Shown here piece after piece: positions 36,001-55,000 of a DNA stretch of 64,000 nt (position 1 is its first letter; the number at the start of each line of letters is the position of its first letter). The stretch spans positions 57,598,001 through 57,662,000 of the forward strand of contig NW_026262690.1 of NCBI RefSeq assembly GCF_021869535.1, in the 5' to 3' direction. The DNA comes from Mytilus californianus. Taxonomy: Eukaryota. The position numbers are program-made.

Positions 36001-36964
36001 ACGATGTGTGTCTTTGGTCAGATGACTTAAAGATATAAATATTTACATATCTTTTTTATCTTCAATATTCTTCTAGTTTAAGTAAGGAAAGATAACTATA
36101 ATAATTTAGAATATTGTATTTCAGATATAGAAAAAACCCTGCTTTATCGGATTTACTATAAATAGACGTAACATTTTTTGAACTGATTTTATTTTTATAT
36201 CGCACATATCAAAAAATTATATCAAGGAAAAATTCGCACAAGTAGGGGTTTCTTACTATTTCCTTAAACACGAATATGTTCAAATATTATCCTTGTACTG
36301 GTATTACGTCATATATAGATCTATATTTCGGTTTACTATTTTAATCGTAAATTTTTTGACAAGCTGTTACTTGTCCGATATTTTATTTATTTTGATACAA
36401 ACAAACGTGAACAAGAATAGTAAAGGATTAGATATGACAATTCAATAGTTATTCGAGTTTAAAATAAGCAGTAAGTACTACGTTAGATAAGAAAATGTTT
36501 ATAGTATTATCTTATTTGGTAAATATATGCATTGAAATAAAAAAAAATACAAACTTCCTGTTTTGATCTTTATATAATGGCGTCAAAGTAATGACTTGAT
36601 ATTTAAATTACATCAGGTAATTAAAAGTAAACAAGTAGTTTCTTCTCCATAAAGACTTAAAAATACAGGATTAAACTAGTAATAGAAGAAGGAATACAAA
36701 TCGATTGAATATTTTACATACTTCTTACACAAACTAAGCTTCGAAGTTGAAAGGTACTGATTTCACATTTTTTTTATAGACTTCACTTGCTCGACTCGAG
36801 CAGCAGTAAATAAAATGAACTTTCTAATCATATTGTGTTACTTTGTTATCTTCTTCTTATATGTAATGTATATCTTTATTCCAAATCACTATACAATGTT
36901 GGAGGGGAAATTGTGGTCAATCCATGATGATTTGAACTAGTAAAATTCATCCGAACTTCCAATG

Positions 36965-37020
<56 letters not shown>

Positions 37021-52000: not shown

Positions 52001-55000
52001 ACAAAACAGCATACGCATTCAACTATTCATCCTAGCAAAAATAAGTTAGATGTATAATACCCTACTTTATTCATAAATATCTATTTACATTGCCATTTAT
52101 AGTAATCCCTAATAGAAACTCATAGAAAACGACCTTTTGAAAACTTTGAAAATAACAAACGATTATGTTATCATATTCTTAATTTAACCCTTTCACAATA
52201 ATTATTGTAAAAAGAAAGTGAATAACAATAGAAACATAAAACATTTTCATAGATTATACAATTCTGCAAAAAATGTAAAAAGGAATGAAATAAAAATGGA
52301 TTATTCAACATTCCTTAACGCGCATCTGTCGTAACAAATTATAAGCCTGGTATTTTTATTTTTTTGTTTTCTATACAGCAATTCATATCAGTAAGGTTGG
52401 TGGTATTGTTGGTTAGACTATTTGTTTTGCCGTTTTAGACAGTTTTTTTGGTGCATGTTTTTGATGAGAATATATTTCAATTTTGAAACGGGGATTCATC
52501 TTGAAGCCATAAACAAAGTATTTTTTATAATTAATTACAAATTGAAATTATACCACGTCTTATCCTGATAACTAATAATCCTAGTAGCAGAGAGCGAACT
52601 ATTTGAATAATATAATAGCTGTATCACAATTTATTTTTTGATTTAACTGAACTACTTAATCACAGGTTTTATGGCTGTTTATAGAGGTAACATTGATGCA
52701 GATTTGTGTCCTGGTTACCGATATATGCCAGTTAACTTCAAGTCAAATATAATTGAAAGCTGTATATTTCTGAAATCCAAATGCAATGGTGAAGGACAGC
52801 TGGTACATCACAATTGGTCGTTGGCAGAGGATACTGCTTGCACGTGTGACTTTTCGAACGGATATGCATTTATCCAAAAGCCAAAAAATAATTGTTATTG
52901 TGTGCCTTCCCAAGAAGACTGCTCTTGTTACAAGAAACAGTGTGGGGATAGCAATTACGTTCTATCACCAGGTAGGATATAAGAAACTTATAAATTTTAC
53001 AAATTATGTACTATGATATATAGCTACTTCAGTACTCTTAGATAGGTACTCTTGTCTTTGTCATAAATGATTGTGTTGTTTTTGTTGTGCTAAATTCTGA
53101 TTTGTCGGATTAATCACTTTTTTAATTTTTCATACTGTTCCACCGGGTTCAACCCACCATTTTTTCTTAAAATGTCCTGTTCCAAGTCAGGAATATGGCA
53201 ATTGTTATCACATAGTCCGTTTTTATGTATGTTGGCGTTTGTTTTTGTAGCAGTTCAGTGTTTCTGTTGTTCCATTTTGTTTCCTCTTATAGTTGATGTG
53301 TTTCCCTCAGTTTTGGTTTGTGACCCGGATTTGTTTCAGTTTAATCGATTTTTGACTATTGAACAGCGGTATACTACAATTGCCTTTATTTCGAATGATG
53401 TACTGTTTCACCGTTTTCTCAAGTTAGAATATTGGTTTCATTTATCAAAAACATGTATAATCCGCAATTTTGTGTATGTGTCTGTCCCAAGCAAGACGCC
53501 TGTAATACAGTACTTCATTTTGTTGCGGTCCGTCATATTTGTTTTTGTTTCATTTAATTTGCTTGTCAGGCCTTGGTTTTCTGTTTTGAGGTGCCACCAA
53601 TTTTGTTGTCCTAAGCCATTCCATCTTCCAAGAGAAAACGTGCTGATCTTGTAAGGCCTGTTTTCTATTAAACAAATTGCCACAAAAGTTTTTAAGAAAA
53701 AATGGAGTGAACCTCGCACAATTTTTATGCAGAAATTGATCTTGCCATTAATGCCATACTCTACGGCATGTGTTTTGTATTTTTAAAACACTTTTGACGG
53801 TTGTATTGTGACCTGCAGTTGTCTACATCCTTGGCTTTCGTTCTTTTTGTGGATAGTTGTCTAATCGGCAATCAAACCAAATTTCCTTTTTTTTTTAGAT
53901 GACATGGCATTTTCCAAAACAATTTTTCATCTCGGTCCTGCCTTAAGAGGTTGATATTATATCATGACAAAAATAATACATAAAGTGTTATTCAAAATGT
54001 TGGTTTTTATCTCCAATCAGATCGTTAAATTTCTCGTATAAATCGTTTTACATTTGTCATTCCATGACCTTTTATAGCTTGCAATGGGTTTGCTCATTGT
54101 TGAAGGCTGTACGGTGACCCATTGTTGCTTACTTCTACGTCATTTGGTCTCTGGAGAGTTGTCTCATTAGCAATTATACCACATCTTCTTATTTTTATAT
54201 TGAACATTCCTTTTGAAAAGTAGATTATCCGAAATCTCCCCATACAATGCTAATTCAAACGTTTATGAATTTGTACAAAAAATCATATTATTAGATAAAT
54301 CACATTTTTTCTGTATTTAGATGAAATGGCTAACAAAATGAATTGCATTCTTGTCTAAAACTTGCATGATTTGCTAATATTTAACATCCAAAGTTGTGGA
54401 AGACCATCGATCTAACTTAAATGTAGATTAAGATTGGTTATGTTTTTATTTGCTAATGGCAAATTTTTCATCTGAGATATTAAGATTTAAAAAAAAATAA
54501 GAAGAAAAAGAACTGAATGAACTTTACAACTCGAGCTTGTTTTCTCAGAATACTTGTTTACCATTTCATGTGTTTTTTAAGTTATACTTAAGACACTTCA
54601 TGGCAGTTTAATTTTACGCGAATAGTGTTTTAATGCTTTTCTTTTAGGTAATTGATCTGTTAAACTAAATCATCGTTGATCCTCTCATCTACTAAGAATG
54701 ATAACGTTATCTTAACATTTGTTATAATATATGTAAAAATTTGGTGACTATGTTCATCGAATCTATTCTGATGAACTTTAAATAAAGGATAATACAAATA
54801 TTTTTTGGTCTACTTATACAATATCTTGACAGTTAGGATCGGTGGAAATCAAAATTTTATAATAAATAATGGGAAAAAGGTCAACTTATATTCGACAGTT
54901 TACGCAAGCATTATCATTTTGTTGACCGTTATAAACTATTTGTGTCAAAGTTGACAACGAATATGTTGCACTTGTCGAATCAATAATTTCTTCAGCTTTT

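What the first reader, a model, noticed from the sequence alone, without database searches (positions are those of the whole stretch)
36815..52971. Uncharacterised cysteine-rich extracellular protein split by a 14.8-kb TE-filled intron
Three phase-compatible exons give about 177 aa: a signal peptide, a module CP..W..RA..VC......YHCL.D......EFC, and a module with CIFLKSKCNGEGQ...DTACTCD...GYAF...P...C.C.PS.EDCSC....C (15 Cys after the leader exon, 4 N-glycosylation sequons). The Cys spacing of the second module is loosely reminiscent of TNF-receptor cysteine-rich repeats. I recall this ectodomain pattern from large, unnamed, lineage-expanded bivalve protein families that carry varied cytoplasmic domains; this is recollection, not a search result. 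Candidate immune or sensory receptor ectodomain.
Basis: partly seen in the sequence, partly recalled or inferred. Interest (0 to 1): 0.65.

Follow-up and report, generated by a model that had tools for sequence, protein, structure and literature searches.

The report
Mussel TNFR-like receptor gene, partial
The exons are real and encode the outer, cysteine-rich part of a membrane receptor from a very large mussel-specific gene family whose fold resembles TNF receptors, and whose members carry many different immune-type domains inside the cell.

Summary
Exon 2 (37659-37833) and exon 3 (52666-52971) are open, phase-compatible and separated by 14,832 bases. A public Mytilus coruscus model (P0003, 98% identical) makes the same splice. 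Exon 3 alone matches 350 protein clusters (294 at E<=1e-10). Every named relative found is from Mytilus.

The family plan is signal peptide, a two-module Cys-rich ectodomain, one transmembrane helix and a variable tail. Tails include nSTAND3+ankyrin, AIG1, Roc-COR, DZIP3-HEPN, CARD and Ig. No Pfam family covers the ectodomain.

AlphaFold models of exon 3 alone and of paralogue P0005 both retrieve almost only TNF-receptor ectodomains. The scores are weak (E about 0.01, TM about 0.5).

- The gene does not end at 52971.
- A probable exon 4 (55484-55565) supplies the family's next Cys pair.
- A possible transmembrane exon lies at 60003-60076.
- The roughly 350-aa cytoplasmic domain, possibly NHL-like, lies beyond the window.
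- A second candidate leader exon sits at 37322-37366.
- The public 'CALM' annotation is probably a chimera with the calmodulin-like gene upstream.

Function is inferred, not shown. I did not search or fold the joined exons.

The parts
36815..36862 (+). Candidate leader exon A. It has an ATG and 16 mostly hydrophobic codons, phase 0, and the donor TAT|gtaatg.
   Evidence: No homologue shows which leader is used: searches gave only models that start inside the intron.
37322..37366 (+). Candidate leader exon B, an alternative to A. It has an ATG and 15 codons (MKVTDIAVCAVFVCL), phase 0, and the donor CTG|gtatgt. It lies 292 bases upstream of exon 2.
   Evidence: By my reading the donor is closer to the consensus than that of A. 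The choice is unresolved.
37659..37833 (+). Exon 2. It encodes the end of the signal peptide plus ectodomain module 1 (CP..W..RA..C..Y.CL..E.C), with 5 Cys and 3 sequons.
   Evidence: It is 98% identical to P0003. 61 tblastn hits from the 151 family members searched fall in the 300-base bin holding this exon (37500-37799; E<1).
37834..52665 (+). Intron of 14,832 bases, phase 1, rich in dispersed repeats.
   Evidence: 25.6% recurs in the window, and there is an inverted pair at 38197-38944 / 47440-48189; no transposon domain in Pfam in the 5 intron ORFs scanned.
52666..52971 (+). Exon 3. It encodes ectodomain module 2, which has 10 Cys and a TNFR-like fold. It ends in phase 1 at the donor g|gtagga.
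55484..55565 (+). Probable exon 4. The acceptor is ccatttcag and the split codon G|AT reads Asp. It then encodes YNC, 17 residues and C, which matches the family's extra Cys pair after 'LSP'. The donor is ag|gtaagg and the exon ends in phase 2.
   Evidence: The family motif [DEAN][YF]xC follows module 2 in 63 of 133 members. The same pattern occurs 3 times in the real 128 kb of both strands, and 0.375 times per shuffled window.
60003..60076 (+). Possible transmembrane exon (CEPNTGIIFINLKCIFLGLVCLIF). It is phase-compatible with exon 4. The public model P0003 uses only its last 21 bases (60056-60076), spliced directly from exon 3.
   Evidence: This is weak: it is one of 14 hydrophobic open stretches in 55566-64000, and its acceptor is poor. 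Its donor is the one that P0003 joins to the tail.

Best explanation
The window holds the 5' half of a gene for a type-I membrane receptor. The gene belongs to a very large, Mytilus-expanded family that has no name and no Pfam model.

Shown here:
- Exons 2 and 3 encode the family's conserved ectodomain.
- The ectodomain has an N-terminal module with two presumed disulfides.
- A second module follows whose predicted fold is a TNF-receptor-like ladder of cysteine-rich repeats.

Shown for the family, inferred for this gene:
- A signal peptide precedes the ectodomain.
- A further Cys pair, a short stalk and one transmembrane helix follow it.
- Then comes a cytoplasmic domain. In this subfamily (P0005, P0003) it is a domain of about 300 aa of unknown family with NHL-propeller-like features. 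It lies beyond base 64000.

Inferred mechanism: the elongated ectodomain binds an extracellular ligand, either microbial or a host multimeric protein. Clustering of receptors brings the cytoplasmic modules together. In paralogues those modules are oligomerising or effector domains of innate immunity and cell death: STAND NTPase with ankyrin, AIG1/GIMAP GTPase, Roc-COR, HEPN RNase and CARD. In this gene the propeller-like tail would serve as a docking platform.
For: Exon structure and phases were read directly.

Homology:
- Exon 3 alone finds 350 clusters at E<=1e-3 and 294 at E<=1e-10.
- All 8 invariant and 8 near-invariant family columns are kept.
- Only these two exons of the window match the family: 61 and 151 tblastn hits from 151 members fall in the 300-base bins holding exons 2 and 3, and nothing else falls below E=0.05.

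Family architecture:
- 57 of 150 members have the module-1 motif in their first 60 aa, and 43 of those have a hydrophobic leader.
- 28 of the 34 members long enough to judge have a TM-like stretch within 130 aa after the extra Cys pair.

Tails:
- Of 150 members at E<=1e-4: I-set 10, nSTAND3 9, Ank 3, AIG1 3, Roc and COR-A 3, HEPN_DZIP3 2.
- 35 of 54 long relatives carry nSTAND3 (my count).
- In 10 long members the effector domains start 40-90 aa after the TM helix.

Fold:
- AlphaFold of exon 3 alone gave pLDDT 80.6 and pTM 0.66.
- All 37 listed PDB matches are TNFR-superfamily entries. The best is HVEM 5t2r_A, with E=0.01, probability 1.00 and TM 0.50.
- The P0005 ectodomain has pLDDT 94-97, and 42 of its 43 listed matches are TNFR entries.
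- The viral library gives poxvirus, herpesvirus and iridovirus TNFR homologues first.
- The Atlas lead to TNFR_c6 scores 0.76.

Subfamily tail:
- P0003 residues 299-594 are 46% identical to the tail of P0005, which has a signal peptide and a TM helix.
- The nearest Atlas clusters for that tail are NHL-repeat clusters at 0.93.
Against: - No transcript evidence was available, so no splice junction is proven.
- The leader exon is ambiguous, with two candidates.
- The transmembrane exon is weakly supported: it is one of 14 hydrophobic open stretches.
- The tail is not in the window, so this copy cannot be shown to be intact.
- The public model P0003 splices differently. It takes an EF-hand N-terminus, skips exon 4 and has no TM helix.
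- The fold matches are weak. 0 matches reach E<=0.001. No TNFR_c6 hit appears at E<=10 for the exons, and the family is not among the 25 most frequent. The PDB sequence profile search found nothing at E<=10.
- Small disulfide-rich ladders can resemble each other without common descent.
- The NHL reading of the tail rests on one feature-based search. AlphaFold gave pLDDT below 50 there, and Pfam found no NHL match at E<=1.
- No ligand, expression or signalling data exist.
Confidence: 0.7

Rival explanations
1. The exons are a relic. This copy would be a broken or silent paralogue of the family, split by repeat insertions and no longer making a receptor.
For: - The intron is 14.8 kb long and repeat-rich.
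- An assembly gap lies at 55075-55243.
- No tail exon lies in the 11 kb downstream.
- Many family entries are fragments. 78 of 150 representatives are 215 aa or shorter. Of the 70 members without the extra Cys pair, 56 carry an xG read-through signature at the exon-3 donor position, and 48 of those 56 end within 60 aa.
- The spacing of the Cys pair in exon 4 (17) lies just outside the usual 7-16 range.
Against: - Both exons are open, and all conserved columns are kept.
- All splice sites are canonical.
- A second assembly of the same species carries the same exons at 98% identity, joined to a full tail.
- The short family entries look like gene models cut at long introns rather than like true fragments.
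Confidence: 0.15
2. The gene makes a short secreted cysteine-rich protein that ends just after exon 3. Reading through the donor at 52971 gives four more codons and a stop at 52983. The product would act as a soluble binder or decoy.
For: - The stop-to-stop frame 52647-52982 ends in ..SPGRI*.
- Soluble decoy forms are known for TNF receptors (established knowledge; DcR3 and OPG are among the fold matches).
Against: - The donor position is the family's conserved phase-1 intron.
- The probable exon 4 restores the conserved Asp-Tyr-x-Cys continuation.
- A stop at 52983 would leave an odd number of Cys in the mature protein.
- P0003 and P0005 both continue into a long tail.
Confidence: 0.07
3. The public annotation is right. 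The protein would start with an EF-hand pair and be a cytosolic calmodulin-like fusion ('CALM').
For: - P0003 begins with 74 aa that match 27701-27910 at 94% identity and a mini-exon at 31452.
- The donor GGT|gtaaaa used in that mini-exon is acceptable.
Against: - The EF-hand exons belong to a gene that ends with its own stop eight codons after that donor, at 31491-31493. That is where a calmodulin-type protein is expected to end.
- A domain with 15 Cys that is preceded by a signal peptide in 43 of 57 relatives belongs in the secretory pathway.
- No other family member among the 150 carries an EF-hand among the 25 most frequent families.
- P0003 also lacks the TM helix that its closest paralogue P0005 has.
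Confidence: 0.05

Closest known systems
Unnamed Mytilus family of 'uncharacterized protein' / 'Novel STAND NTPase 3 domain-containing protein' entries. Examples are P0005 (599 aa), M. californianus LOC127716727 (P0004) and M. trossulus LOC134692437 (P0060).
   Same: - The two-module ectodomain is the same, with every invariant Cys.
- The intron positions are the same.
- P0005 is 55% identical to exon 3. Against the public model P0003 it is 48% identical over the ectodomain and 46% over the tail.
   Different: - This copy belongs to the minority subfamily whose tail is propeller-like and of unknown family, not nSTAND3+ankyrin.
- It has RYMP where the family has RYQP.
- It has a longer loop (17 residues) in the extra Cys pair.
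TNF receptor superfamily ectodomains (HVEM, CD40, TNFR1, 4-1BB, DcR3) and viral TNFR homologues such as CrmD
   Same: - The predicted fold of module 2 is an elongated ladder of small disulfide-bonded repeats. TNFR entries fill the match lists from three searches.
- The layout is type-I membrane, as in TNF receptors.
   Different: - There is no sequence match to Pfam TNFR_c6 and none to any PDB sequence.
- CxC doublets replace the usual CxxC spacing (sequence; the usual spacing is recalled).
- The N-terminal module contains a helix.
- The tails are not death domains or TRAF-binding stretches.
- No TNF-like ligand is known for it.
Receptor-like lineage-specific expansion of about 50 proteins in Crassostrea virginica, described by Kaur, Iyer, Burroughs and Aravind (eLife 2021, PMC8195603). 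I read passages and all of section 10.
   Same: The theme is the same in another bivalve: a constant Cys-rich extracellular domain, one TM helix, then a variable region drawn from Death-like domains, STAND NTPases, HEPN RNases, AIG GTPases, ankyrins, beta-propellers and B-box.
   Different: - The oyster proteins have a DED plus NCOA6-type TRADD-N dyad after the membrane. 0 of 10 long Mytilus members show DED or TRADD_N at E<=0.05, and their effector domains start only 40-90 aa after the TM helix.
- Whether the two ectodomains are homologous was not tested.

Membership tests
Unnamed Mytilus Cys-rich ectodomain receptor family | Module 2 with the conserved Cys framework and the KS.C.EEGQ and PS.EDCSC motifs | tested here: met
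   Exon 3 alone matches 350 clusters. All 8 invariant and 8 near-invariant columns are present.
Unnamed Mytilus Cys-rich ectodomain receptor family | Module 1 (CP..W..RA..C..Y.CL..E.C) directly upstream of module 2 | tested here: met
   Exon 2 was translated. 61 tblastn hits from 151 relatives fall on it. The motif occurs in 57 of 150 relatives.
Unnamed Mytilus Cys-rich ectodomain receptor family | N-terminal signal peptide | tested here: inconclusive
   There are two phase-compatible hydrophobic leader exons. No signal-peptide predictor and no transcript were at hand.
Unnamed Mytilus Cys-rich ectodomain receptor family | Extra Cys pair ([DE][YF]xC ... C) after a phase-1 intron, followed by a transmembrane helix | tested here: inconclusive
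   Exon 4 at 55484-55565 fits. The TM exon at 60003-60076 is only a candidate.
Unnamed Mytilus Cys-rich ectodomain receptor family | Cytoplasmic domain after the TM helix | not testable with these tools
   No part of P0003 residues 238-597 is found in the window apart from the 'LVCLIF' mini-exon at 60058-60075. The tail must lie beyond base 64000.
TNF receptor superfamily | Sequence match to the TNFR cysteine-rich repeat (Pfam PF00020, TNFR_c6) | tested here: not met
   There is no hit at E<=10 for either exon. The family is not among the 25 most frequent in 150 relatives at E<=1e-4 or E<=1.
TNF receptor superfamily | Elongated ladder fold of cysteine-rich repeats | tested here: inconclusive
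   The match lists are almost purely TNFR: 37 of 37, 42 of 43, and viral TNFRs first. However, the best E is 0.01, TM is about 0.5, and 0 matches reach E<=0.001.
TNF receptor superfamily | Three disulfides per repeat in the 1-2, 3-5, 4-6 pattern (recalled definition) | not testable with these tools
   Model coordinates are not returned, so the disulfide partners could not be read.
TNF receptor superfamily | Binds a trimeric TNF-fold ligand and signals through a death domain or TRAF sites | not tested
   No ligand is known. The tails in the family are of other kinds. One distant member carries a CARD domain (P0203).
Oyster Cys-rich/TM/DED/TRADD-N receptor-like expansion (PMC8195603) | DED plus NCOA6-type TRADD-N dyad after the TM helix | tested here: not met
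   0 of 10 long members show it at E<=0.05. It is absent from the top-25 lists. Caveat: my Pfam copy may not model the NCOA6-type TRADD-N domain.
Oyster Cys-rich/TM/DED/TRADD-N receptor-like expansion (PMC8195603) | Constant Cys-rich ectodomain with a variable tail of STAND, HEPN, AIG, ankyrin or propeller domains | tested here: met
   establish this for the family. The paper's text was read. Homology of the two ectodomains was not tested.
Calmodulin / EF-hand proteins (the public name 'CALM') | EF-hand pair as part of this gene's product | tested here: not met
   The EF-hand exons at 27660-27902 and 31452-31493 end in their own stop codon. Pfam finds EF-hand_7 only in the first 73 residues of P0003.

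The most novel reading that the evidence does not exclude
The family would be a class of animal immune receptor not yet described. A TNFR-fold ectodomain would be wired directly, through one membrane span, to STAND NTPases, GIMAP and Roc GTPases, HEPN RNases or propellers. That amounts to a membrane-bound counterpart of NLRs. Its ligands would be the equally expanded secreted C1q/TNF-fold proteins of mussels. Soluble pattern recognition outside the cell would then be read by a matching receptor repertoire and turned into oligomerisation-driven defence or cell death. The pairing with C1q-domain proteins is my own conjecture from established knowledge that C1q and TNF share a fold and that mussels have very many C1q-domain genes. 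No call tested it.
Probability: 0.12. Interest if true: 0.8.

Novelty: new variant of a known kind. Interest (0 to 1): 0.5.

Why it matters
Mussels resist infection unusually well and also face transmissible cancers, yet much of their expanded gene repertoire has no name.

- This locus is a clean example of a family with hundreds of sequence clusters whose outer domain has no Pfam model. I found no description of the family in nine full-text searches.
- A TNFR-like fold gives a concrete way to look for ligands.
- The constant ectodomain with swapped immune-type tails parallels what was described for an oyster expansion (PMC8195603). That suggests bivalves build receptor repertoires by domain shuffling behind a fixed sensor.
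- On the practical side, the public gene model ('CALM') is probably chimeric. Many family entries are cut at long introns, so family counts taken from annotations will be wrong.

Tried and rejected
- **Pfam on the exons.** It gave only CPW_WPC at E=0.12, below its cut-off. I took this as chance.
- **PDB sequence searches.** The family profile found nothing. P0005 gave two weak hits in its tail (a prolyl isomerase at E=0.0012, an SMC protein at E=0.28). I took these as chance.
- **Exon 2 search for orthologues to fix the leader exon.** The two hits at 83% identity start inside the intron and say nothing about the leader.
- **tblastn of 151 relatives for downstream exons.** It found none. The stalk and TM region is too variable, so I used a motif-and-phase scan instead.
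- **Open frame at 60189-60590.** It has a TM-like stretch, but I rejected it as the next exon. Its acceptor at 60191 is out of phase with exon 3, with exon 4 and with the 60076 donor (my reading).
- **Pfam on the five intron ORFs.** No transposon domain was found.
- **The listing of cluster members.** The call did not complete because the database was switched off.
- **AlphaFold of the P0005 tail.** Confidence was too low to use.
- **Not checked.** I did not use complex prediction, because no binding claim is made. Supplements of PMC8195603 and PMC9646362 were not opened.
- **Joined exons.** I did not search, translate or fold the joined exons. All searches were made exon by exon.
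Full report
**What is in the sequence**

The window is AT-rich, with 29-37% G+C. It is eukaryotic with spliced genes. I read the stated coordinates directly and translated each exon on its own.
- The leader exon 36815-36862 gives 16 mostly hydrophobic residues and ends at a gt donor in phase 0.
- Exon 2 (37659-37833) starts after an ag in phase 0 and ends in phase 1.
- Exon 3 (52666-52971) starts after an ag in phase 1 and again ends in phase 1.
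- The intron between exons 2 and 3 is 14,832 bases.

**Is it more than chance?**

Open-frame length is not enough in this DNA. There are 19 stop-to-stop frames of 90 aa or more between 36000 and 64000. Homology is decisive.
- Exon 3 alone matches a Mytilus coruscus protein (P0003, named 'CALM') at 98% identity, E=1.6e-63. It matches a Mytilus californianus protein (P0004) at 46%.
- In the exhaustive search of 1.84 billion representatives, exon 3 finds 350 clusters at E<=1e-3 and 294 at E<=1e-10.
- Exon 2 alone finds P0003 (98%) and two Mytilus galloprovincialis-type models at 83%.
- Exon 3 keeps all 8 invariant and 8 near-invariant columns of a 79-sequence alignment.

**The family**

I examined the 150 listed representatives.
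- 57 have the module-1 motif within their first 60 residues, at a median of 24 residues from the start. 43 of these have a hydrophobic leader before it.
- 133 have the end-of-module-2 anchor. 63 of those go on with [DEAN][YF]xC and a second Cys, most often 11 residues later.
- 34 of the 63 are long enough to judge, and 28 of them have a TM-like stretch within the next 130 residues.
- Of the 70 without the extra pair, 56 show 'xG' exactly where exon 3 ends, and 48 of those stop within 60 residues. This is what a gene model looks like when it reads through a G|GT donor. It marks a conserved phase-1 intron at the position of 52971.

Pfam finds nothing on the ectodomain in any member.

Beyond the membrane, Pfam finds the following among 150 members at E<=1e-4: I-set in 10, nSTAND3 in 9, ankyrin in 3, AIG1 in 3, Roc and COR-A in 3, HEPN_DZIP3 in 2, and several singletons.

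A profile search limited to proteins of 374-2000 aa returned 54 proteins.
- All 50 that carry a name are from Mytilus: coruscus, galloprovincialis, edulis, californianus and trossulus.
- 35 carry nSTAND3, mostly with ankyrin repeats.
- Others carry AIG1, Roc-COR, dynamin-N, Ig or CARD, or are named DZIP3-like HEPN.
- 6 have no Pfam domain at all.

That search works through shared words and so favours close relatives. The range outside Mytilus is therefore open. The Atlas says only 'Mollusca' for the nearest clusters.

**Fold**

- AlphaFold on exon 3 alone, using the alignment of short relatives, gave pLDDT 80.6 and pTM 0.66.
- Foldseek against the PDB gave 186 matches at E<=10 and none at E<=0.001. 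All 37 listed rows are TNF-receptor-superfamily entries: HVEM, CD40, TNFR1, 4-1BB, DcR3, TNFR2, CD27 and equine lentivirus receptor 1. The best is E=0.01, probability 1.00, TM 0.50.
- To see both modules together without joining the window's exons, I folded the natural paralogue P0005. Its ectodomain has pLDDT 94-97. 42 of its 43 listed PDB matches are again TNFR entries.
- The viral library puts poxvirus CrmD, camelpox TNFR II, and herpesvirus and iridovirus TNFR homologues first.
- The Atlas gave a TNFR_c6 cluster at 0.76, which is a lead only.
- Against this, no TNFR_c6 match appears at sequence level. The profile finds no PDB sequence.

I therefore say that the domain works like, and is probably folded like, a TNFR ectodomain. 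I do not file it as a member of that superfamily.

**The gene does not end at 52971**

P0003 continues for about 360 residues after exon 3. Of these, only a 21-base mini-exon (60056-60076) lies in the window. Residues 299-594 of P0003 are 46% identical to the tail of P0005, which has a signal peptide, the full ectodomain and a TM helix at 225-243. So the tail is the true cytoplasmic domain of this subfamily, and it lies beyond base 64000. Its nearest Atlas clusters are NHL-repeat clusters at 0.93. Pfam and AlphaFold do not confirm this.

Between exon 3 and the mini-exon I looked for the family's next element with a phase-aware motif scan.
- The exon at 55484-55565 has a good acceptor (ccatttcag).
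- Its split codon with exon 3 reads Asp, giving the consensus 'LSP-D-Y-x-C'.
- It has a second Cys 17 residues later and a consensus donor, ag|gtaagg.
- The full pattern occurs 3 times in both strands of the real window. It occurs 0.375 times per shuffled window, with a maximum of 3 in 200 shuffles.

I call this exon probable.

It ends in phase 2. An open, hydrophobic stretch at 60003-60076 is compatible with that phase and shares its donor with P0003's mini-exon. It would supply the missing TM helix. However, its acceptor is poor, and 14 such hydrophobic stretches exist in 55566-64000. It is therefore only a candidate. An assembly gap (55075-55243) lies in the intron before exon 4, and I left it alone.

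**The 5' end**

By my reading it has the better donor. No relative settles the choice.

P0003 instead starts with an EF-hand pair. Those residues map to 27701-27910 and to a mini-exon at 31452. In the window that mini-exon runs on to a stop codon eight codons after the donor that P0003 uses. This gives a normal calmodulin-type C-terminus. I conclude that a separate calmodulin-like gene lies upstream and that the public model is probably a chimera of two or three genes' worth of exons. It also skips the TM helix.

**The intron**

- 3,797 of its 14,832 bases recur elsewhere in the same 64 kb.
- This includes a 750-nt inverted pair at 96.7% identity (38197-38944 and 47440-48189).
- A short element has at least eight further copies in the window.
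- Pieces are alike to an ORF at 6106-6603 that I read as reverse-transcriptase-like. I did not scan that ORF.
- The 5 intron ORFs scanned gave no transposon domain in Pfam.

'Repeat-rich' is shown. 'TE-filled' is a fair but unproven description.

**Comparison with what is known**

Nine full-text searches found no description of this Mytilus family.

The closest precedent is in Kaur et al., eLife 2021 (PMC8195603; passages and all of section 10 read). About 50 Crassostrea virginica proteins have a constant cysteine-rich extracellular domain, a TM helix, a DED plus TRADD-N dyad, and then a variable region. That region holds Death-like, STAND, HEPN, AIG, ankyrin, propeller or B-box domains.

The Mytilus family shares the theme but not the dyad. 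0 of 10 long members show DED or TRADD_N at E<=0.05, and their effector domains begin only 40-90 residues after the membrane. Whether the two ectodomains are related could not be tested. The paper's source-data files, which I could not open, may bear on this.

A pearl-oyster genome paper (PMC9646362; passages read) documents haplotype-variable expansions of NACHT, DZIP3-HEPN and Ig genes in another bivalve. It does not mention this ectodomain.

**Verdict**

It is one ordinary, incompletely captured member of a large, unnamed, Mytilus-expanded receptor family.
- New here: the fold assignment, the corrected gene structure, and the recognition that the public model is chimeric.
- Inferred only: ligand binding, clustering and immune signalling.

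Noticed in passing
window 25803-25952, 27660-27902, 31452-31493 (+): A calmodulin-like gene with EF-hand exons and its own stop codon (..DFLKVMGVKPKCD*). The public M. coruscus model 'CALM' (P0003) runs from it into the receptor exons, probably wrongly.
   Followed up: partly
window 38197-38944 and 47440-48189: A 750-nt inverted repeat pair, 96.7% alike, lies inside the long intron with 8.5 kb between the arms. Parts of it match an ORF at 6106-6603 (-) that I read as reverse-transcriptase-like, at about 76% identity.
   Followed up: partly
window 38198-38481, with copies near 19.8, 27.1, 28.5, 33.9, 35.6, 39.5, 48.0 and 58.8 kb: A short dispersed repeat (about 120-290 nt, 70-81% alike) carries an open frame with ..GAPEITPSFWWGSCCLVF... 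It looks like a very abundant small mobile element, and Pfam has no match for it.
   Followed up: no
window 36971-37025: A (CT)27 microsatellite lies between the two candidate leader exons.
   Followed up: no
window 55075-55243: A run of 169 N (assembly gap or mask) lies in the intron between exon 3 and the probable exon 4. I left it alone.
   Followed up: no
P0037, P0083, P0186, P0193, P0199, P0201 (family members, not in the window): In the two members I mapped, the Ig domains lie after the predicted TM helix: P0037 has TM at 208-226 and I-set at 259-335, and P0083 is similar. That places them on the nominally cytoplasmic side, next to HEPN or AIG1 domains. Either the topology differs or these are merged gene models. 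The other four are Ig-bearing members listed whose domain positions I did not map.
   Followed up: no
Precomputed Pfam labels: The accessions PF28177, PF28321 and PF27108 appear on some relatives but are absent from the Pfam copy I could search. I do not know what they describe. They are on a minority of members, so they are not the shared ectodomain.
   Followed up: no
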